In this document: piece by piece, positions 14,599 through 61,087 of the stretch
Numbering within the stretch: the first letter of the stretch is position 1
Layout: every line of letters starts with the position of its first letter
NCBI GenBank assembly: GCA_949290295.1
Contig: CASERH010000001.1
Location: forward strand, 67,969 to 131,968
DNA length: 64,000 nt
Direction: 5' to 3'
From: an uncultured Pseudomonadota bacterium
GTDB taxonomy: Bacteria > Pseudomonadota > Alphaproteobacteria > RF32 > CAG-239
Position numbers and translations under genes: made by a program
The notes under the pieces: model-generated
The model's database searches: none
What the model was told of the DNA's origin: nothing
Seen by the model: only the letters and a program-made list of their open reading frames with translations

Positions 14599-16866
14599 AT
14601 GGCAGTAGAGAAAAAAGGAGAAGAATGGGAAGAATATAACAGTGCCGTCCGCTGGATGGTAATAACGGTTATTATCTCCACTCTCATAACCATATTTTTA
14701 GCTTTGGTTTCAATGCCGTTAGGATACCTTATCGGCACGGGTATTTCAAAAGAAAGCTTAGGGGATGTTTCCCGCTTTTTTGACCTTGTATTCAATAAAC
14801 CTGGCTATCTTTATTCTCGCTATTGGAACTGGATAAAACAAGTTTTTAATTACCACGGTCCTTTTTCTGTAAGCCTGTGGATTCCTATTTTGCCCTTTAT
14901 CAGCCTCCCGGTTGGTTTAATTTTTGGGGTCATTACTAATCCATACAGATTCCAATCAAACATCCACGGCTCTGCCCGCTTGGCTACGGAAAAAGATATC
15001 AAAAAGATGGAACTGTTGGGATTCGATGGCTTTTGCCAAGTGGTTGGCAAATTCAACAATAAGCTTCTACTGTTGAAAGAAACGCTTTCCACGCTTTGTT
15101 GCGCACCTCCGGGAACCGGTAAAACAGCAGGAGTTGTTGTTCCGACAATTTTTCATTCACCGACCTTAAGCATCATCGTAAACGACCCCAAGCCGGAATT
15201 GTGTTTTCAAACATCCGGTGCCAGAGCCAAGGTTGGTCCTGTTTTTATCATCAACTGGGGTATGGAAGATAATCCTGCGGAAGGCATATACTACCCAAGT
15301 TGGAATCCTCTTTCTCCCGGTGCGGTACCGGCGCCTGGACCTTCCAGAGATATGTATGTAGATTCCATGTGCAAGGTTTTGGTAGAAGACCCCAAAGGAG
15401 GAGCAGACCCTCACTGGTCGACAACTGGTCGTGCGGCCCTAACCGGCTTTATCCACTTTATAGTTTCCAAGTGCGAAAAAGCAAGAGCTAATGACTACTT
15501 TATCGGCCGAGTTTATGAAGGCAAGTTAGACGAAGAAGATAAAAAGGTTCTGGAAGGCTACTATTTGGAAATGAATGATCCTGCAGCCGCCAGAGCTCTT
15601 CAAAATTTAAGAAACAATACCCTAAACATAGACAACTATTTACCGATTGGTACCTGGGCTTTGTTGCCGGAAAAATGGATTGGGCGAGAAGCCTGCATAG
15701 CCATGATTTTGGAGTGGATTACAGAGGCACAAATTAAACAATCTCAGGATATCAAACGCCGTATGGATGAAGGCGACCAAATGGCGGCCATGGCAGACCC
15801 CATGAGAGATTTGTTGGAGGAAGCTATTGAAGAGGCTCGTAAATTTGGCTACACGCAACGCTGTATCGTTGAGTTGAGCCAGTTAAGCTCTATGCCGGAT
15901 AAAGAAAGAGGCTCTGTTCTTTCAACCGCTTTTGCCGGCATCAACATCTTCAAAAACTCCGCCGTGGTAGCCCGTACAAGCTTCAGCGATTTGGCCTTCA
16001 AAGACTTGCGAGGACTAAAAGACCCCATTACCGGGGAATTTAAGCCTATTTCCGTTTATCTTTCGGTAAACCAAGTAGATGCCAGAGCTTTGAGTGTAAT
16101 TTCAGGAACATTCATTGACCTGATGTCCTCTTATCTGATAGCAAATCCACCCAAATTTAAGAATCCGACCGACGGTCAGATGGGTCCCTACTCCTGCCTA
16201 TTTGTACTAGACGAGTTTCCAACCATGCCCAAACTACGAGCCGTTATCGACGGGCCGGCAGTTGGACGTGGCCAAAAAGTATCATACTTGCTGATTGGCC
16301 AAGATTTGGGCCAAATATCCGGTAAATATGGTAAAGATGACCTCGAAACGGTTATCTCCACAACAGCCTGTAAGGTTATCTTGTCCCAAAACAACGAGCA
16401 AACAGCCCAACGTTTCTCAAAAATGATTGGCAACAAAACTGTCCAAACAACGTCTTACTCAAAGAACGAAGGTGGTTTTGGAAAGGGTGTAAACCCCTTC
16501 TCTAAAAACGTAAGCTACCAGTTACAAGGTGTTTCGGTTATATCTACAACACAACTATTAAGCTTGCCAATGCTAAAACAAGTTGTTTTGATGCAAAGTT
16601 ACATCGACAGGCCGATCATGGCAGATTCTCCTCGTTGGTACTTGGATAAAAAGATGAAGGCTCTGCGCAACCTTCCACCGGCACCAAATGTCCCAGACTG
16701 GATTGTTGCTCAAAGAGAAGACATTAATGATGATATGTTGGCCAAACTGGGTATAGACTATGATCCAAACGAAGATTTTGATGATTCCGAGTTTGCAGAA
16801 GATGAGGAGTATGATGAATCTTCTGAAGAAGCAGAAGACACCTCTACCGAGCAAGCCCCTCAATAG
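14599..16866 (+). CDS. Type IV secretion coupling protein (T4CP), VirD4/TraG/DotL family ATPase
   Basis: Two N-terminal TM helices. HGSARLATEKDIKKMELL matches the VirD4 HGSARWA box. Walker A is CCAPPGTGKTAGVVVPTI. FVLDEFPTMPKL is the Walker B box FLLDEF, and LLIGQDLGQI is the T4CP IGQ/Q motif. C-terminal acidic tail is DDSEFAEDEEYDESSEEAEDTSTEQ. Confidence 0.8.
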   Translation: MAVEKKGEEWEEYNSAVRWMVITVIISTLITIFLALVSMPLGYLIGTGISKESLGDVSRFFDLVFNKPGYLYSRYWNWIKQVFNYHGPFSVSLWIPILPFISLPVGLIFGVITNPYRFQSNIHGSARLATEKDIKKMELLGFDGFCQVVGKFNNKLLLLKETLSTLCCAPPGTGKTAGVVVPTIFHSPTLSIIVNDPKPELCFQTSGARAKVGPVFIINWGMEDNPAEGIYYPSWNPLSPGAVPAPGPSRDMYVDSMCKVLVEDPKGGADPHWSTTGRAALTGFIHFIVSKCEKARANDYFIGRVYEGKLDEEDKKVLEGYYLEMNDPAAARALQNLRNNTLNIDNYLPIGTWALLPEKWIGREACIAMILEWITEAQIKQSQDIKRRMDEGDQMAAMADPMRDLLEEAIEEARKFGYTQRCIVELSQLSSMPDKERGSVLSTAFAGINIFKNSAVVARTSFSDLAFKDLRGLKDPITGEFKPISVYLSVNQVDARALSVISGTFIDLMSSYLIANPPKFKNPTDGQMGPYSCLFVLDEFPTMPKLRAVIDGPAVGRGQKVSYLLIGQDLGQISGKYGKDDLETVISTTACKVILSQNNEQTAQRFSKMIGNKTVQTTSYSKNEGGFGKGVNPFSKNVSYQLQGVSVISTTQLLSLPMLKQVVLMQSYIDRPIMADSPRWYLDKKMKALRNLPPAPNVPDWIVAQREDINDDMLAKLGIDYDPNEDFDDSEFAEDEEYDESSEEAEDTSTEQAPQ

Positions 16867-16875
16867 GATTCAAAA

Positions 16876-17430
16876 ATGTGGGAGTGGTCCAAATCACGAA
16901 AAAAAAACATTCACGAAGGGTCTTTGAAAAACCGCTTTGAAGACCTTATCTCTCCACCCTCGGCATCACCTTCTGACATTGAAATACCATCTCCGGAGCA
17001 GATGAAGGAGCTTGTTCTGAGCGAAATAAAAAGAGAAAATCTCCTCAACATTGAACTAAAAAAATGCACTTATCATCCGCAAACATGGAATGAGATGACC
17101 AAAAGCTCAACACAATACCTAAGAATGAGAAAAACATTTCTTAAACTAATAGGATATTCTGCACAAGAAGATTGCAGAAAAATAGGATTTGATGAAGAAG
17201 ATATAGAGCTACTAAAGGAAAAAATATCTCCGGAAAACTATAACACCCACATAAAGATTCCGCTTGAATTTGGTGGAAAATTAGACATGGATAACCTTTG
17301 CCTGATAAAAACGCACCCTCTGCATGACCAAATTCACCACTTGATAGACATTCAAATCAGTTGTGGTTTTTTGCAAAAATATAAATTTATTTATATTCCT
17401 TGGTTTGAAGGAAAAATTTATCATGATTAA
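16876..17430 (+). CDS. HNH/colicin-E9-type DNase toxin domain protein
   Basis: The C-terminal THIKIPLEFGGKLDMDNLCLIKTHPLHDQIHH aligns with the colicin E9 DNase HNH motif [30 protein letters not shown]. It starts 10 nt after the T4CP stop. Confidence 0.65.
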   Translation: MWEWSKSRKKNIHEGSLKNRFEDLISPPSASPSDIEIPSPEQMKELVLSEIKRENLLNIELKKCTYHPQTWNEMTKSSTQYLRMRKTFLKLIGYSAQEDCRKIGFDEEDIELLKEKISPENYNTHIKIPLEFGGKLDMDNLCLIKTHPLHDQIHHLIDIQISCGFLQKYKFIYIPWFEGKIYHD

Positions 17431-22725: not shown

Positions 22726-23207
22726 TTTTCAGCTACAGATTTACTAAGAATATTCATAAAGGCTCGGCTTACCTGAGTTTCAGGACCGAGCTCTTTTTTT
22801 TGTACTTCAAACAGCTCATTTGAGTTCATTTGATTAAGGTCTGCTTTGAGAGAAGAATTAACGGGAATTTCCCCGCTACGATCGATATAGTTGATATCAC
22901 GATTATAATCATCAAACTTTTTTTGATAATCGGGAACAGCGATTTTTTCTGTTTTTTCCTCTATAAATTCCGATTTATCAACAGTGGCAACCATATTTTC
23001 CGACTTAGTATTAAGCATCTTTTTTTTTGGCAAAGGCGGTAACTTTTCAGGTTGATTAAATTGGACCTCCTTAGGCATAAAAAAATCAGGTTGAAGCTGT
23101 TTTCTGACATAGCGACCATAAGCAGTGACACTCACCCCGAGAGAAACTATCAACAAAAGGGCCCAAAGCGTAAATTTTTTATGCATAAAATAAACTCCAT
23201 CAACCAT
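22722..23207 (-). CDS. Membrane-anchored hypothetical protein of 161 aa
   Basis: N-terminal TM (WALLLIVSLGVSVTAYG). Remainder has no recognised family. Confidence 0.35.
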   Translation of the reverse strand: MVDGVYFMHKKFTLWALLLIVSLGVSVTAYGRYVRKQLQPDFFMPKEVQFNQPEKLPPLPKKKMLNTKSENMVATVDKSEFIEEKTEKIAVPDYQKKFDDYNRDINYIDRSGEIPVNSSLKADLNQMNSNELFEVQKKELGPETQVSRAFMNILSKSVAEN

Positions 23208-44346: not shown

Positions 44347-44940
44347 TTACAAAGCTTTTCTAGAGTTAAGAGCCAGTTGTAAGGTGCCTTCATCCATGTA
44401 ATCAAGCTCGGCTCCCATGGGAATTCCTTGCGCAAGGGTTGTTATCTTAACATTAAAGTCCTTAAGGCGGGAAGAAAGGTAGTGAGCGGTGATTTGCCCA
44501 TCCACAGTTGCTGGCAGAGCCAAAACAACCTCCTGCACGCCCTCAGAAGCGATTCTTTTAAGAAGAGGTTCAATATTCAAGTCTTCAGGCACAACCCCCT
44601 CCAGAGCCGATAAAACGCCTCCCAGCACGTGATATTTTCCCTTAAATTGGGATACACGCTCCATTGCCCACAAATCAGCCACATCTTGCACCACGCAAAG
44701 AATTTTAGAATCTCTGGTTGTTGATGAACAAACCGAGCAGGGTGAAACCGTATCAAAATTACCGCAAATTTCACAAGTTTGAATATTTGTTGCCACCTCG
44801 TTTAAGGCCTCAATCAACGGCAAAAGAGATGTTTCTTTTTTCTTAAGCAGATGTAGGACGATTCTTCTGGCCGAGCGTGTACCCAAAGAGGGCAGTTTGG
44901 CAATTTGCTTAACCAGTTTTTCAATTTCGTTTCCGGCCAT
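44347..44940 (-). CDS. recR: Recombination protein RecR
   Basis: C4 zinc finger CEICGNFDTVSPCSVC and a Toprim domain. Confidence 0.9.
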   Translation of the reverse strand: MAGNEIEKLVKQIAKLPSLGTRSARRIVLHLLKKKETSLLPLIEALNEVATNIQTCEICGNFDTVSPCSVCSSTTRDSKILCVVQDVADLWAMERVSQFKGKYHVLGGVLSALEGVVPEDLNIEPLLKRIASEGVQEVVLALPATVDGQITAHYLSSRLKDFNVKITTLAQGIPMGAELDYMDEGTLQLALNSRKAL

Positions 44941-44971: not shown

Positions 44972-45292
44972 CTAGAACGGAAGTTTCAAACCGCCGAGGT
45001 TAAGCCCGCCGCTCAAGGCATTCATGCTGTCTTGCATTTTGGCATCAACCTTGTTTTTGGCATCGTTATAGGCCGCCACAATCAAATCTTCCAAAACTTC
45101 CACATCCTGAGGATCAACAAGGCTGTTGTCAAGAGAGAGCTTTTTCATCTCAAATTTGCCGTTTAAGGTAACCTTAACCATTCCGCCGCCGGAAGACCCT
45201 TCAACTTCTTCCTGCGCGAGTTTGGCTTGCTCTTCTTCCATTTTCTTTTGCATCATTTGTGCTTGTTTCATAATGCCTTGAATATTCATCAT
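44972..45292 (-). CDS. ybaB: Nucleoid-associated protein YbaB/EbfC
   Basis: Family signature (MMQKKMEE...GGGMVKVTLNG). Conserved between dnaX and recR. Confidence 0.85.
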   Translation of the reverse strand: MMNIQGIMKQAQMMQKKMEEEQAKLAQEEVEGSSGGGMVKVTLNGKFEMKKLSLDNSLVDPQDVEVLEDLIVAAYNDAKNKVDAKMQDSMNALSGGLNLGGLKLPF

Positions 45293-45294
45293 TT

Positions 45295-47037
45295 TTACAA
45301 ATCCTCATCAAAATAGTTATCATTGTCTTCATAGCTGTTAAACGAGCTTGCCGCTTCTTCAGGCTCCTCCTCTTCGGTTGAGCTGATTTTGCGTGTCAGG
45401 GTTTCAATTTTAGAACCCTTAAATTCAGCCAAAATAGCCTTAACCAGCGGCAGGTCGGAAACACTTTTTTTGTTGGCGTTGTCGGCGGCTTCTTCTTTGT
45501 CAGCAATCGTTTCGCCCAAATACCCTCGCAAAACCTCAATATCCCACTTGCTTCCGGTTGCTTCAATCAAGACATGTTGCAAATTGAGTAAAAAATCGTT
45601 GTTGATTTTATCAGAAATGGTAATTTTCATCTTGCTCGGAGCAAATTCGCTAAAAGAGATATCGTGCTTAAAGGTATAAGCCAGCAAAACTTTTTTAGAG
45701 CTTTCAAGATAAGCGGCCAATTCCTCCGGGGTGTTAAAAACCAAGCCCTTTCCTTCAGAAGAAACCTCTGTTGGCACGACAGAAGGAGCTGCAACAACAG
45801 ACTGAGCCTGTTCCGACTTAGGTGTAACAGTGATAGCGGGAGCTAATTCAGATTTTTTTTTTACGTCGTTGAGAATTTCAAGCGGCGTTGGCAAGCTGGC
45901 AGAATATGCAATCCGGATGAGTATCATCTCAAGCGCGTCTATCTGGACCGGCGCCAAAGAAAGTTCAGATAGGCCTTTAATCATCATTTGCCAGATTTTA
46001 GAAAGAATGGCAATCGGAGCATTTGGCGCCACTCTGGCACAAAACTCCTTTTCGCTTTCAGAAAGGCTATCATCATTGGCAAAGGCCGGAATAATCTTAA
46101 CCTTGGCCAGCAAATGGGTGATATTAATCAAATCTTGCAAAACAGTTAAGGGAGTGGCACCGTTTTTATACATTTCTGCCAAATTCTGCACTGCCAAATT
46201 CTGCACTACGGCGTCAACCTTGCCGGCCAAAAGCTTTTCAAACAAATCAAAAGTTTGGGAGCGGTCTGCAAGACCGATCATGTTTTTGACAACATCGGTT
46301 TTAACTGCGCCGCCGCCTAAAGATATTGCCTGATCCAAAAGGGACAAGCCATCACGGCAAGAGCCGTCGGCGGCTTTGGCTATAAGGTGCAAAGCCTCGT
46401 CTTCGGCGCTCAAGCCTTCTTTGGCAATAATATTTTTAAAGTGAGTAACTAGGGTATCAATAGTCAACCGCTGCAAGTCAAATCTTTGGCAGCGAGATAA
46501 AACGGTGATGGGCACTTTGCGAATTTCGGTTGTGGCAAAGATAAATATAACATGAGAAGGCGGCTCTTCCAAAGTCTTAAGCAAGGCGTTAAACGCACTT
46601 TTTGAAAGCATATGCACTTCGTCGATGATGTATATTTTGTAGCGGGCATTAGTTGGTTTGTAGCGCACACCGTCTAAGATTTCGCGCACATCGTCAACAC
46701 CGGTTCTGGATGCGGCATCGAGCTCCAAAACATCAATATGTCTGGACTCAGAGATTGCACGGCAGTTTTCGCAAATACCGCAAGGGTTGATTGTCGGTCC
46801 GCCATGGCCGTCTTTACCTGTGCAGTTAAGCGCTTTGGCAATAATTCTGGCGGTGGTGGTTTTCCCCACACCGCGGATTCCGGTTAGGATATATGCATGG
46901 TGAAGTCGATTGTTTTTTATGGCGTTGGTAAGGGTTTGCACCAAAGCATCTTGCCCCAAAAGCTCATTAAAATTCTGGGGGCGATATTTGCGGGCTAAAA
47001 CCACATAGTTTTCTTTATTTTGAGTATCTTCAGCCAT
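45295..47037 (-). CDS. dnaX: DNA polymerase III subunit tau (DnaX); contains a candidate A10 slippery site for gamma production
   Basis: AAA+ GIRGVGKTTTARI, SRC box, Zn-binding CGICENC. The start at MAEDTQ (47037) is chosen because the ORF-track start (47088) overlaps ffs. Confidence 0.85.
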   Translation of the reverse strand: MAEDTQNKENYVVLARKYRPQNFNELLGQDALVQTLTNAIKNNRLHHAYILTGIRGVGKTTTARIIAKALNCTGKDGHGGPTINPCGICENCRAISESRHIDVLELDAASRTGVDDVREILDGVRYKPTNARYKIYIIDEVHMLSKSAFNALLKTLEEPPSHVIFIFATTEIRKVPITVLSRCQRFDLQRLTIDTLVTHFKNIIAKEGLSAEDEALHLIAKAADGSCRDGLSLLDQAISLGGGAVKTDVVKNMIGLADRSQTFDLFEKLLAGKVDAVVQNLAVQNLAEMYKNGATPLTVLQDLINITHLLAKVKIIPAFANDDSLSESEKEFCARVAPNAPIAILSKIWQMMIKGLSELSLAPVQIDALEMILIRIAYSASLPTPLEILNDVKKKSELAPAITVTPKSEQAQSVVAAPSVVPTEVSSEGKGLVFNTPEELAAYLESSKKVLLAYTFKHDISFSEFAPSKMKITISDKINNDFLLNLQHVLIEATGSKWDIEVLRGYLGETIADKEEAADNANKKSVSDLPLVKAILAEFKGSKIETLTRKISSTEEEEPEEAASSFNSYEDNDNYFDEDL

Positions 47038-47061: not shown

Positions 47062-47156
47062 CAAAAAGTGGAGAGCAAGCGACCTCAACCGGATTCGTTA
47101 CGGCTGCTTCCTTCCGGACCTGACCGGGTTGGCGAAAGGTCAACCCGCCGCTCTCC
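47062..47156 (-). ncRNA. ffs: Signal recognition particle RNA (4.5S RNA, ffs)
   Basis: The minus-strand sequence contains GGUCAGGUCCGGAAGGAAGCAGCC, the conserved domain IV. The terminal helix is 5'-GGAGAGCGG...CGCUUGCUCUCC-3'. It is immediately upstream of dnaX, the conserved ffs-dnaX-ybaB-recR arrangement. Confidence 0.85.
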
Positions 47157-47204
47157 TTTGGTATAGTTAGCAGATTGACGTTAATTTTCAAGTAAAATTT
47201 AGCT

Positions 47205-55892: not shown

Positions 55893-55968
55893 TGGTGGAG
55901 GTAAGGAGGATCGAACTCCTGACCTAATGATTGCGAACCATTCGCTCTCCCAACTGAGCTATACCCCC
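55893..55968 (-). tRNA. tRNA-Ala (anticodon CGC), CCA encoded
   Basis: Cloverleaf GGGGGUA...UACCUCC with G3:U70. Anticodon loop is UUCGCAA, T-arm GGTTCGATCC. Confidence 0.85.
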
Positions 55969-56008
55969 GTTAGAAACAAAGCCCACTTTTTTAGTGGGCT
56001 TTTGGAAT

Positions 56009-56084
<76 letters not shown>

Positions 56085-60038: not shown

Positions 60039-60280
60039 CGAGAAAACCAGTAGAACTCAAAAGCGTCGAGAATATCGACGCTTTTTTTGTGCGGTTTAGT
60101 CAAAAAAATACTTGCCAAAATAATAATTTAAGTATAGAAAAGCACACGGATTGGCAATGGTGCCGATTCATAATTCACACGCAGATTTTGGCGGGATGTT
60201 TTTTGATGTTTCGCTCCGGTGCCTTGGAAAGAAGGCTCAAGAGGATCTGCGGAGGTTTAACCGGAAAAGGATAAGAAATA

Positions 60281-61087
60281 ATGACCCTTCCTACATTTAC
60301 AATGCGTCAGATGATTGAAGCTGGCGTTCACTTCGGTCACCACGCTCGTCGTTGGAACCCGAAGATGGCTCCGTATATTTACGGCAAAAAAGACAATATT
60401 CACATTATTGACTTGCAAAAGACCTACCCGATGCTGTACACAGCTTTGGCCACCACTCGTGAGATTGCTGCCAACGGCGGTAAGGTATTGTTTGTAGCCA
60501 CCAAACGTCAGGCTCAAGACATCATCAAAGAAAATGCCGAGAGATGCGGCCAATACTATGTTAACCAACGTTGGTTGGGCGGAATGCTGACCAACTGGAA
60601 AACCGTTCATAAATCAATTTCTCGCCTTGTTAAATTAAACGAGATGGCCGAGAAGAATGAATATGAAGGCTACACCAAGAAAGAGCAACTGAATCTCAAA
60701 AAAGAGCAAGAGAAACTCAACAAAGAGCTTGGTGGAATCATGAACATGGGTGGCCAGCCGGATTTGGTATTTGTAATTGATACCTGCAAAGAATCTTTGG
60801 CTATCAAAGAGGCCAAAAAGCTCGGTATTCCTGTCATTGGCATTTGCGATACTAACGCAGATCCGGAGGCAGTGGATTTACCGGTTCCCGGTAATGATGA
60901 TGCCATTCGCGCCATTCAGTTTTATTCTGAATTGGTTTCTGCAGCTGTATTGGACGGTATGTCCGCTCAAATTGCAGCTCAGGGCGTAAAGGTTGATGAA
61001 ATGGTTGAGAAAGAGGAAGCTGAGGCCAAAAAGCCTGCTCGCAAGAGAGCTTCCAAGAAGGCCGCTGCTGAGGCAAGTGCCGAATAG
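60281..61087 (+). CDS. rpsB: 30S ribosomal protein S2
   Basis: [11 protein letters not shown]-terminus. Full-length S2 with a C-terminal K/E tail. Confidence 0.95.

What the first reader, a model, noticed from the sequence alone, without database searches (positions are those of the whole stretch)
45845..45870. A10 slippery run in dnaX with an immediate -1-frame stop: candidate tau/gamma frameshift or transcriptional-slippage site
On the coding strand dnaX reads GAC GTA AAA AAA AAA TCT GAA, which is A10. A -1 shift gives ATC TGA, one Ile then stop. The site lies at about 68% of the ORF (residue about 392 of 580). In E. coli the A AAA AAG frameshift that creates gamma sits at the same relative position and is also followed by an early -1 stop, and Thermus uses an A9 run. 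The geometry strongly suggests a programmed mechanism producing a short DnaX form.
Basis: partly seen in the sequence, partly recalled or inferred. Interest (0 to 1): 0.55.

Follow-up and report, generated by a model that had tools for sequence, protein, structure and literature searches.

The report
Conserved slippery A-run in dnaX
The run of ten A's in this bacterium's DNA-replication gene dnaX is real and strictly conserved in its relatives, and it most likely lets RNA polymerase slip so that one gene makes both the long (tau) and short (gamma) clamp-loader proteins, a trick known from Thermus but apparently not reported in this bacterial group.

Summary
dnaX (window 45295-47037, minus strand, 580 aa) reads GAC GTA AAA AAA AAA TCT GAA TTA G. 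The A10 run (45853-45862) starts at the third base of Val392, a few residues after the clamp-loader core (domains I-III).

One extra A in the mRNA gives ...VKKKI-stop. Two extra A's, or one fewer, gives ...VKK(K)NLN-stop. Both short products are about 43.5 kDa; full-length tau is 63.7 kDa.

About 50 distinct related dnaX sequences from uncultured gut and rumen Alphaproteobacteria all carry NTA AAA AAA AA[A/C], an A9 or A10 run. The three wobble positions inside the run never changed, while flanking wobble positions changed about 11 times each on the same tree. Both alternative frames keep a nearby stop, although the downstream sequence differs between lineages. I found no conserved RNA structure or Shine-Dalgarno-like stimulator. 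Long A/T runs are otherwise depleted in the window.

This is the architecture of Thermus thermophilus dnaX, which uses programmed transcriptional slippage. It does not fit the stimulated frameshift signal of E. coli dnaX. A second alphaproteobacterial clade with cultured species (Hyphococcus, Marinicaulis; 56-64% GC) carries the same A9 site.

Verdict: a real, well-supported new member of a known kind. No RNA or protein data were available, so the mechanism is inferred.

The parts
45295..47037 (-). dnaX coding sequence. The zero frame encodes full-length tau (580 aa, 63.7 kDa).
   Evidence: ORF list. Pfam finds DNA_pol3_delta2, the ATPase lid, domain III (aa 246-390) and DUF3646 (tau C-terminus, aa 436-545). 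NCBIfam PRK09111 scores 710 bits against a cutoff of 604. Mass.
45853..45862 (-). A10 slippery run (T10 on the plus strand). It covers the third base of the Val392 codon plus Lys393-395 (GTA AAA AAA AAA).
   Evidence: An A9 or A10 run is invariant in 52 distinct relatives. There were zero changes at the three wobble positions, against a mean of 11.4 at flanking wobble positions.
45848..45850 (-). TGA stop in the -1 frame. It is read after one extra A in the mRNA or after a -1 ribosomal shift, and gives gamma ending ...NDVKKKI (396 aa, 43.5 kDa).
   Evidence: A -1-frame stop lies within 5 codons in 51 of 51 relatives and after 1 codon in 42. The Ser codon that builds it is TCT in 41 of 44, against 22% in the background.
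45843..45845 (-). TAG stop in the +1 frame. It is read after two extra A's or one missing A, and gives gamma ending ...VKKKNLN (398 aa) or ...VKKNLN (397 aa).
   Evidence: A +1-frame stop lies within 4 codons in 47 of 51 relatives. The Leu codon that builds it is TTA or CTA in 37 of 39, against 20% in the background.
45853..47037 (-). Part shared by tau and the predicted gamma (aa 1-395): AAA+ module, lid and collar domain III, which together form the complete clamp-loader core.
   Evidence: Pfam domain III ends at aa 390. Query residues 10-385 align to residues 2-366 of the crystallised E. coli gamma construct 1jr3 (373 residues).
45295..45852 (-). Tau-only part (aa 396-580): a variable linker and the DUF3646 C-terminal domain. 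It is lost in the slipped products.
   Evidence: Protein conservation collapses immediately after the KK[K/N]S motif.
47064..47159 (-). SRP RNA gene (ffs) directly upstream of dnaX. This is context, and it fixes the dnaX start at the ATG at 47037.
   Evidence: Rfam RF00169, 63.2 bits against a gathering score of 40.
44972..45292 (-). ybaB/ebfC, immediately downstream of dnaX (context: the ffs-dnaX-ybaB-recR cluster).
   Evidence: Pfam YbaB_DNA_bd, E = 1.2e-33. Relatives have the same gene order.
44347..44940 (-). recR (context).
   Evidence: Pfam RecR_HhH, Toprim_4 and RecR_C.

Best explanation
The A10 run is a programmed slippage site that lets one dnaX gene make two clamp-loader subunits.

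Faithful transcription, or slippage by a multiple of three A's, gives mRNA that encodes tau (580 aa). Tau has domains I-III plus the C-terminal part that in other bacteria binds the helicase and polymerase.

When RNA polymerase realigns the nascent RNA on the T10 template and adds (or drops) A's in a number not divisible by three, ordinary translation meets a stop 1-3 codons after the run. The result is a gamma-like protein of 396-398 aa (about 43.5 kDa). It ends a few residues after domain III, so it keeps the clamp-loading core but lacks the tau-specific domains.

This is the mechanism shown experimentally for the A9 run of Thermus thermophilus dnaX. A -1 ribosomal shift on the in-phase A_AAA_AAA heptamers would give the same ...KKKI product and may contribute.

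Shown here: the run, its phase, both stops, and their conservation and synonymous-site constraint across a deep clade. Inferred: that slippage actually occurs, at what efficiency, and that the short product is used as gamma.
For: 1. Position. The run lies a few residues after domain III (Pfam end at aa 390; alignment to crystallised E. coli gamma). It is at 67.6% of the ORF.

2. Nucleotide-level conservation.
- A scan with a pattern lying upstream of the run, and therefore blind to it, plus targeted look-ups, gave 52 distinct intact clade sequences.
- All read NTA AAA AAA AA[A/C].
- Lys codons are AAA in 102 of 102 cases against 75% in the same genes. The preceding V/L/I codon ends in A in 51 of 51 against 17%.
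- On a neighbour-joining tree the three wobble positions changed 0 times, against a mean of 11.4 at 38 flanking codons. The first base of that V/L/I codon changed 5 times.

3. The run never falls below 9 A's, although a ribosomal heptamer needs only 7. Nine is the length at which bacterial RNA polymerase slippage becomes efficient (PMC1088944; PMC6260861).

4. Stops in both alternative frames.
- The -1 frame stops within 5 codons in 51 of 51. The +1 frame stops within 4 codons in 47 of 51.
- Both stop within 3 codons in 84%, against 5.6% expected from the same genes.
- The stops are kept in at least six different downstream sequence contexts. The Ser and Leu codons that build them are under synonymous constraint.
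- Nearby stops in both non-zero frames are the described hallmark of Thermus dnaX (PMC5009743).

5. Depth. The run persists down to about 62-66% identity to the window in domains I-III (about 55% pairwise within the clade), across 23 clusters at 90% identity. The nearest hits without a run are at 53%.

6. Long A/T runs are 5- to 8-fold depleted elsewhere in the window. Every other KKK in the window contains at least one AAG codon. Runs of this length therefore seem to be selected against except in dnaX.

7. A second alphaproteobacterial clade (Hyphococcus/Marinicaulis, 56-64% GC) has TTA AAA AAA AAN at the identical alignment position in 8 of 8 members, with stops in both frames. TTA is only 10 of 351 Leu codons in those genes.
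Against: - There are no transcript or protein data, so slippage and a gamma product are inferred from sequence only.
- The run is always in the phase required for X_XXY_YYZ tandem -1 ribosomal slippage, so a translational contribution cannot be excluded.
- The Fisher tests are not corrected for phylogeny, although the parsimony counts are tree-based.
- E. coli RNA polymerase is reported to slip less readily on A runs in the RNA than on T runs (PMC6260861). The slippage behaviour of this organism's polymerase is unknown.
- Two other A9 runs sit inside small uncharacterised ORFs in the window, so A9 is not absolutely excluded from coding sequence.
- In Caulobacter, the only alphaproteobacterium studied, gamma is made by ClpXP proteolysis, so a different route might have been expected in this class.
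Confidence: 0.65

Rival explanations
1. The short product is made mainly by -1 programmed ribosomal frameshifting on the in-phase A_AAA_AAA (or A_AAA_AAC) heptamer, as in E. coli dnaX, with the mRNA faithfully templated.
For: - The run always begins at codon position 3, which is the X_XXY_YYZ phase.
- The -1-frame stop follows after one codon in 42 of 51 sequences.
- A_AAA_AAA and A_AAA_AAC are recognised shift heptamers (PMC5009743).
- E. coli makes gamma this way at the same relative position.
Against: - No conserved downstream stem-loop: the mean z-score of 50-nt flanks is -0.1 and RNAalifold finds no consensus structure.
- An SD-like core lies upstream in only 4 of 38 distinct sequences. 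In E. coli these stimulators are needed to reach about 50%.
- A_AAA_AAA and A_AAA_AAC are much less shift-prone than A_AAA_AAG in E. coli (PMC5009743), yet AAG never appears here.
- A heptamer would not require 9 or more A's, nor the invariant A at the wobble position of the preceding V/L/I codon, because a second in-phase heptamer exists without it.
- It does not explain the conserved +1-frame stop.
Confidence: 0.2
2. The run has no recoding function. A basic KKK/KKN patch at the domain III-linker boundary is conserved for protein reasons, and AAA-biased codon usage in a 41% GC genome produces the run incidentally.
For: - AAA is the preferred Lys codon: 73% in the window and 75% in the clade's dnaX.
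- Other Alphaproteobacteria often have hydrophobic-basic-basic residues at this position, for example IKKL, VRKL and LKRL.
Against: - There were zero synonymous changes at three wobble sites while neighbouring sites changed about 11 times each.
- The V/L/I codon changes its amino acid five times but always ends in A.
- Lys at codon -19 of the same alignment is AAA 35 and AAG 17.
- The stops in both alternative frames are maintained by constrained Ser and Leu codons.
- The same run occurs in genomes of 56-64% GC where TTA is under 3% of Leu codons.
- Other KKK tripeptides in the window contain at least one AAG codon.
Confidence: 0.05
3. The homopolymer is a DNA-level contingency locus. Replication slippage switches cells heritably between tau-encoding (A10) and gamma-only or tau-by-slippage (A9, A11) alleles.
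For: A few metagenome assemblies carry A11 (L100) or A8 (L117, L090) at this site. One distant locus (L064) has a two-ORF arrangement at an A12 run.
Against: - dnaX and tau are essential in the bacteria studied.
- The in-frame run length is fixed in 51 of about 55 assemblies.
- The deviant contigs L100 and L117 have further indels nearby, or very low coverage, relative to near-identical contigs. This points to sequencing or assembly error.
Confidence: 0.03
4. The A/T tract serves another nucleic-acid-level role, such as an internal promoter element, a terminator on the opposite strand, or a DNA-bending or protein-binding tract.
For: A weak sigma-70-like match (TTGAAA, 18-nt spacer, AAAAAT) overlaps the run on the coding strand.
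Against: - Promoter-like matches are at chance level (2 found, 0.9 +/- 1.0 expected). The -10-like hexamer is not preserved in the A9+C variants.
- No terminator-like hairpin precedes the T10 on the plus strand.
- None of these roles explains the fixed codon phase or the two conserved out-of-frame stops.
Confidence: 0.04

Closest known systems
Thermus thermophilus dnaX: programmed transcriptional slippage on an A9 run (Larsen et al. 2000, as described in PMC1088944 and PMC5009743)
   Same: Same gene. A sense-strand A run of 9 or more lies after the clamp-loader core. Tau is encoded by one uninterrupted ORF. Stop codons lie close by in both non-zero frames, so any slip that is not a multiple of three gives gamma. 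No flanking stimulator is evident.
   Different: Different phylum (Alphaproteobacteria rather than Deinococcus-Thermus). The run is A9 or A10, is preceded by a V/L/I codon ending in A, and is followed by C or T rather than G. The site is at about 68% of the ORF, whereas PMC1088944 places it at seven-eighths in Thermus. Slippage here is not experimentally shown.
Escherichia coli / Salmonella dnaX -1 programmed ribosomal frameshifting at A_AAA_AAG
   Same: Same gene and same relative position: E. coli gamma is 431 of 643 residues. Same outcome, a truncated gamma ending one codon into the -1 frame. An in-phase A-rich heptamer is present.
   Different: E. coli uses A_AAA_AAG with an upstream Shine-Dalgarno-like element and a downstream stem-loop. 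Here AAG is never used, neither stimulator is conserved, the run is 9 or more A's, and the +1 frame is also closed.
Two-ORF poly-A dnaX of Chlorobi, Bacteroidetes and Verrucomicrobia (Antonov et al. 2013, PMC3711429)
   Same: An A10 run in dnaX at the gamma/tau junction, with transcriptional realignment as the proposed mechanism.
   Different: In those genomes the zero frame stops right after the run, so gamma is the default product and tau needs the slip. Here tau is the zero-frame product in all intact relatives. No Alphaproteobacteria appear among the species visible in the excerpt of that paper's poly-A alignment that I read. One distant alphaproteobacterial locus (L064) may be of this type.
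Caulobacter crescentus DnaX: gamma made by partial ClpXP proteolysis of tau (cited in PMC5009743 and bioRxiv 10.1101/2022.11.10.516041)
   Same: Same bacterial class, and the same end result of a tau and a shorter gamma from one gene.
   Different: That mechanism is post-translational and needs no slippery sequence. Most other alphaproteobacterial dnaX loci examined here (78 of 80) have no A run near the junction.

Membership tests
Thermus-type dnaX transcriptional slippage (tau in frame, gamma from slipped mRNA) | Homopolymeric run of at least 9 A in the sense strand of dnaX, downstream of domains I-III | tested here: met
   A10 at 45853-45862, starting at codon 392; domain III ends at aa 390. 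A9 or A10 in all 52 distinct relatives.
Thermus-type dnaX transcriptional slippage (tau in frame, gamma from slipped mRNA) | Full-length tau encoded by a single uninterrupted zero-frame ORF through the run | tested here: met
   580-aa ORF in the window. ORFs of 555-621 aa in the complete related loci.
Thermus-type dnaX transcriptional slippage (tau in frame, gamma from slipped mRNA) | Stop codons close to the run in both non-zero frames | tested here: met
   TGA after 1 codon in the -1 frame and TAG after 3 codons in the +1 frame. Both lie within 3 codons in 84% of relatives, against 5.6% expected. Synonymous constraint acts on the codons that build them.
Thermus-type dnaX transcriptional slippage (tau in frame, gamma from slipped mRNA) | mRNA population heterogeneous in the number of A's relative to the DNA | not testable with these tools
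   No transcriptome data were accessible. This needs RNA-versus-DNA amplicon or metatranscriptome read counts at the run.
Thermus-type dnaX transcriptional slippage (tau in frame, gamma from slipped mRNA) | A shorter DnaX protein (gamma) present in cells alongside tau | not testable with these tools
   The predicted products are 396-398 aa and about 43.5 kDa. No proteomic data were available.
E. coli-type dnaX -1 programmed ribosomal frameshift | In-phase X_XXY_YYZ slippery heptamer (A_AAA_AAG in E. coli) | tested here: inconclusive
   In-phase A_AAA_AAA or A_AAA_AAC heptamers are present. However, the efficient A_AAA_AAG form never occurs in 52 sequences.
E. coli-type dnaX -1 programmed ribosomal frameshift | Upstream Shine-Dalgarno-like stimulator | tested here: not met
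   A 4-nt SD-like core lies within 24 nt upstream in only 4 of 38 distinct sequences. None is present in the window.
E. coli-type dnaX -1 programmed ribosomal frameshift | Downstream stem-loop a few nucleotides 3' of the heptamer | tested here: not met
   The mean z-score of the 50 nt downstream is -0.10 (sd 0.83) over 55 sequences. RNAalifold gives no consensus structure upstream or downstream.
E. coli-type dnaX -1 programmed ribosomal frameshift | Stop codon in the -1 frame immediately after the shift site | tested here: met
   ATC TGA in the window. Within 5 codons in 51 of 51 relatives.
Two-ORF poly-A dnaX (tau requires slippage; Antonov 2013) | Zero-frame stop directly after the run, with the tau C-terminal domains in another frame | tested here: not met
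   The zero frame is open to residue 580 and contains DUF3646. The same holds in the intact relatives.
Caulobacter-type proteolytic gamma (ClpXP) | Gamma generated post-translationally from full-length tau by ClpXP | not testable with these tools
   This is a biochemical property. Nothing in the sequence analysis addresses it, and it could coexist with slippage.

The most novel reading that the evidence does not exclude
Thermus-type transcriptional slippage may be the standard way of making gamma in two deep alphaproteobacterial clades. One is the uncultured gut and rumen clade of this window. The other is the GC-rich marine Hyphococcus/Marinicaulis clade. The site sits at the same codon position in both, having arisen independently or been inherited and repeatedly lost. 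A possible inverted two-ORF version exists in a third lineage (L064). If so, Alphaproteobacteria alone would use at least two or three unrelated routes to gamma (slippage, ClpXP proteolysis, perhaps tau by slippage). That would be strong evidence that a tau:gamma mixture is itself under recurrent selection, and cultured Hyphococcus strains would make it testable.
Probability: 0.55. Interest if true: 0.6.

Novelty: new member of a known kind. Interest (0 to 1): 0.5.

Why it matters
Whether bacteria need the short gamma form of DnaX, and why, is still debated. Recurrent evolution of different ways of making gamma is one of the main arguments that it matters.

A recoding site conserved at synonymous positions across a deep, host-associated alphaproteobacterial clade adds independent cases of the Thermus solution. 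So does the second clade, which includes cultured marine species. Both are in a class where only proteolytic processing was known.

There is also a practical consequence for annotation. Surveys based on disrupted ORFs miss recoding that shortens the product (PMC4066793). Annotation pipelines label these genes simply as 'gamma/tau', and assemblies with a run one A too long or short can look like pseudogenes.

Finally, the contrast between general depletion of long A/T runs and strict retention of this one suggests that this organism's RNA polymerase does slip on such runs.

Tried and rejected
- **Genome scan.** It returned only distant dnaX loci (35-57% identity) and no close relatives. These served as outgroups only.
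- **RNA structure.** A search around the run (per-sequence z-scores and RNAalifold, upstream and downstream) found nothing conserved. A small hairpin abutting the run in the window itself is not shared by relatives.
- **SD-like stimulator.** Not conserved.
- **Promoter or terminator role for the tract.** Matches were at chance level.
- **Deviant assemblies.** A11 (L100) and A8 (L117, L090) were considered as evidence for DNA-level phase variation. I rejected this because L100 and L117 carry other indels relative to near-identical contigs.
- **Taxonomic names.** The sources label the clade only as 'Alphaproteobacteria bacterium' or 'Proteobacteria bacterium' MAGs.
- **Primary Thermus paper.** PMC26496 is not held, so Thermus details come from reviews and from the alignment in the supplement of PMC3711429.
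- **Literature.** No report of this site in Alphaproteobacteria was found. The library lacks most subscription journals, so absence is not proof.
- **Not attempted.** A third homology search on the L064 lineage, and structure prediction, which was unnecessary here.
Full report
**1. What is there**

The finding lies in dnaX on the minus strand.
- The CDS is 45295-47037 and encodes 580 aa from an ATG.
- The longer TTG-started ORF would run into the SRP RNA gene at 47064-47159, so the ATG start is preferred.
- Pfam and NCBIfam identify the product as alphaproteobacterial-type DnaX (PRK09111, 710 bits). It has the AAA+ module, the lid, domain III ending at residue 390, and the tau C-terminal domain DUF3646 at residues 436-545.
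- The gene sits in the cluster ffs-dnaX-ybaB-recR.

The coding strand reads AAC GAC GTA AAA AAA AAA TCT GAA TTA GCT.
- The A10 run is at window 45853-45862. It begins at the third base of Val392 and encodes Lys393-395.
- The predicted products are tau at 63.7 kDa and three short forms of about 43.5 kDa. An mRNA with A11 gives 396 aa ending ...VKKKI. A12 gives 398 aa ending ...VKKKNLN. A9 gives 397 aa ending ...VKKNLN.
- Residues 10-385 align to residues 2-366 of the crystallised E. coli gamma construct 1jr3 (373 residues). The short forms therefore keep the whole clamp-loader core and lose only the tau-specific part.

**2. Is it more than chance?**

Composition alone would not make one A10 remarkable, but the genome avoids such runs.
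- Dinucleotide-preserving shuffles of the window give 8.0 +/- 3.5 A10/T10 runs. The window has one, this one.
- Runs of 9 or more give 4 overlapping matches at 3 loci, against 19.2 +/- 6.5 expected.
- All the other KKK tripeptides in the window's ORFs contain at least one AAG codon. Only dnaX uses AAA AAA AAA preceded by a codon ending in A.

**3. Comparative evidence**

*Protein level.* The 120 best protein homologs (71-99% identity) are all uncultured Alphaproteobacteria from gut, rumen and similar samples. Nearly all keep the motif NDVKK[K/N]S, exactly where protein conservation collapses into a variable linker.

*DNA sampling.* I obtained DNA for close relatives by exact-protein look-ups. 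I also scanned the metagenome collection with a degenerate pattern for the peptide I-R-[IV]-[AS]-[YF]-S-A-x-L-P-T-P. This peptide lies just upstream of the run, so the scan is blind to it.

*The run.*
- All 52 distinct intact clade sequences read NTA AAA AAA AA[A/C]. This is A9 (27 sequences) or A10 (24-25), always starting at codon position 3.
- Third-position entropy is 0 at these three codons and 0.5-2 bits at nearly all flanking codons (Met excepted), including those with invariant amino acids. For example, Lys at codon -19 is AAA 35 and AAG 17.
- On a neighbour-joining tree of domains I-III, flanking wobble positions changed 11.4 times on average. The three wobble positions in the run changed 0 times, while the first base of the V/L/I codon changed 5 times.
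- Measured against codon usage in the same genes, AAA is used in 102 of 102 Lys codons (background 75%). The V/L/I codon ends in A in 51 of 51 (background 17%).

*Depth.* The run-bearing sequences form 23 clusters at 90% identity and 7 clusters at 80% identity in domains I-III. Pairwise identity goes down to 55%. The nearest hits without a run are 53% identical to the window.

**4. Both alternative frames are kept closed**

- After one extra A, a stop follows within 5 codons in 51 of 51 sequences, and after a single codon in 42.
- After two extra A's or one fewer, a stop follows within 4 codons in 47 of 51.
- Both stops lie within 3 codons in 84% of sequences. Alternative frames elsewhere in the same genes would give 5.6%.
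- The stops are preserved in several unrelated downstream contexts: TCT GAA TTA G; AAC TCT AAT TTA; TCT AGC CTA G/A; CCG CTT GAA; CCG ATA AAT AG; TCA AAA CTG AAA AAT A.
- The codons that build the stops are synonymously constrained. Ser is TCT in 41 of 44 (background 22%). Leu is TTA or CTA in 37 of 39 (background 20%).

**5. Mechanism**

Nearby stops in both non-zero frames next to a run of 9 or more A's, with tau in the zero frame, is the published architecture of Thermus thermophilus dnaX. There, RNA polymerase slippage produces mRNAs with extra A's, and ordinary translation of the out-of-frame ones gives gamma (PMC5009743; PMC1088944; PMC6260861).

Three features here argue for this mechanism over E. 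coli-type -1 ribosomal frameshifting:
- **Run length.** The run never falls below 9 A's. The wobble A of the preceding V/L/I codon is invariant even though an in-phase heptamer exists without it.
- **The +1 frame.** The +1-frame stop is conserved, and a -1 ribosomal shift has no use for it.
- **No stimulators.** The mean z-scores of 50-nt flanks are about 0, RNAalifold finds no consensus structure, and an SD-like core is upstream in only 4 of 38 sequences. The efficient A_AAA_AAG heptamer is never used.

The fixed phase does fit X_XXY_YYZ, so some ribosomal contribution to the ...KKKI product cannot be excluded. I put about 0.65 on transcriptional slippage as the main route. I put about 0.2 on ribosomal frameshifting as the main route. 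Together that is about 0.85 that the site is a programmed gamma-generating signal of some kind.

I rejected three other readings:
- A purely protein-level explanation, because of the synonymous-site data.
- A promoter or terminator role, because matches are at chance level.
- DNA-level phase variation. The few A8 and A11 assemblies carry other indels relative to near-identical contigs, and dnaX is essential in the bacteria studied.

**6. Beyond the window**

Among 80 distant alphaproteobacterial dnaX loci, 78 have no A run near the domain III boundary. Two do.

*L055 (Marinicaulis MAG, 56% GC).*
- It has TTA AAA AAA AAC CGT GAA at the same alignment position. The expected number of such runs over all 80 loci is 0.03.
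- Its protein relatives conserve ALKK[N/K] across most of the 120 best hits. Outgroups have MLKRDSG, MLSGG or similar.
- DNA from eight members all shows TTA AAA AAA AAN. These are Hyphococcus flavus, H. formosus, H. luteus, Hyphococcus sp., Marinicaulis aureus and three MAGs, at 56-64% GC.
- In all eight the tau ORF is intact. A stop follows after 0-1 codons in one alternative frame and after 2-7 in the other (16 in L055).
- TTA is only 10 of 351 Leu codons in those genes. A close relative lacking the motif reads TTA AAG AGC.

The same solution therefore exists in a second alphaproteobacterial clade, one with cultured members.

*L064 (37% GC).* It has an A12 run. The zero frame ends ...EKKKS-stop at 448 aa and the tau C-terminal domain continues in the -1 frame. 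This is either the two-ORF type of Antonov et al. or an assembly that is one A short.

**7. Comparison with what is known, and novelty**

- The mechanism class is known from Thermus (A9).
- Poly-A two-ORF dnaX genes are described in Chlorobi, Bacteroidetes and Verrucomicrobia (PMC3711429).
- E. coli uses ribosomal frameshifting, and Caulobacter uses ClpXP proteolysis.
- No paper in the searchable library describes a slippage site in alphaproteobacterial dnaX. Disrupted-ORF surveys are blind to recoding that shortens the product (PMC4066793).

I therefore classify this as a new member of a known kind. It is well supported by comparative sequence evidence but unverified at the RNA and protein level.

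**8. Limits**

- All evidence is from sequence.
- The Fisher tests ignore phylogeny, although the parsimony counts do not.
- The clade could not be named more precisely than uncultured gut and rumen Alphaproteobacteria.

Noticed in passing
L055 4176-4184; L156-L161 and L163 (dnaX, about codon 400): A second alphaproteobacterial clade, Hyphococcus/Marinicaulis (56-64% GC, with cultured species), carries TTA AAA AAA AAN (A9) at the identical alignment position in dnaX in 8 of 8 members. Tau is intact and both alternative frames have stops. TTA is under 3% of Leu codons in those genes.
   Followed up: yes
L064 4316-4327: A 37% GC alphaproteobacterial MAG, labelled Paracoccaceae, has an A12 run in dnaX. 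The zero frame stops at 448 aa (...EKKKS-stop) and the tau C-terminal domain continues in the -1 frame. This is either a two-ORF 'tau needs slippage' gene of the kind known from Chlorobi and Bacteroidetes, or an assembly that is one A short. With A13, both alternative frames would stop within 1-3 codons.
   Followed up: partly
window 46177-46206 (minus strand): There is a perfect 15-nt tandem duplication (GTGCAGAATTTGGCA twice, encoding VQNLA-VQNLA) inside domain III of dnaX. It is absent from a homolog (P0001) that is otherwise identical, and from other relatives.
   Followed up: partly
window 16899-16907 (+) and 23020-23028 (-): The only other A/T runs of 9 or more in the window lie inside small ORFs with no Pfam match (184 aa and 161 aa). 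They are near a type IV secretion coupling-protein gene (14599-16866; T4SS-DNA_transf and TraG-D_C). Overall, runs of 9 or more are 5- to 8-fold depleted relative to dinucleotide shuffles.
   Followed up: partly
L100, L117, L090, L088 (dnaX run): A few metagenome assemblies show A11, A8 or garbled versions of the run, which split dnaX into a gamma-length ORF. L100 and L117 also carry other indels relative to near-identical contigs, so these look like homopolymer sequencing or assembly errors. Such errors would make the gene look like a pseudogene in annotation.
   Followed up: partly
L069 2968-4239; L075 2986-4239: The Pelagibacteraceae and Rickettsiales dnaX ORFs are only 423 and 417 aa. They have almost no linker but keep the conserved C-terminal end motif, so they are naturally short tau proteins without any slippery run.
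   Followed up: no
window 45863-45888 (minus strand): In the window, a small predicted RNA hairpin (ACGCCGCTTGAAATTCTCAACGACGT) ends directly at the A run. This resembles the hairpin-plus-run layout reported to stimulate slippage in some IS elements (from my own knowledge, not checked in the papers read here). It is not conserved in relatives: RNAalifold finds no structure and z-scores are about 0.
   Followed up: partly
window 55893-56084 (-) and 60176-60281 (+): Two adjacent tRNA-Ala genes (anticodons CGC and GGC) and an rpsB leader/sRNA match (RF01815, 43.9 bits against a gathering score of 40). Both are unrelated to the finding.
   Followed up: no
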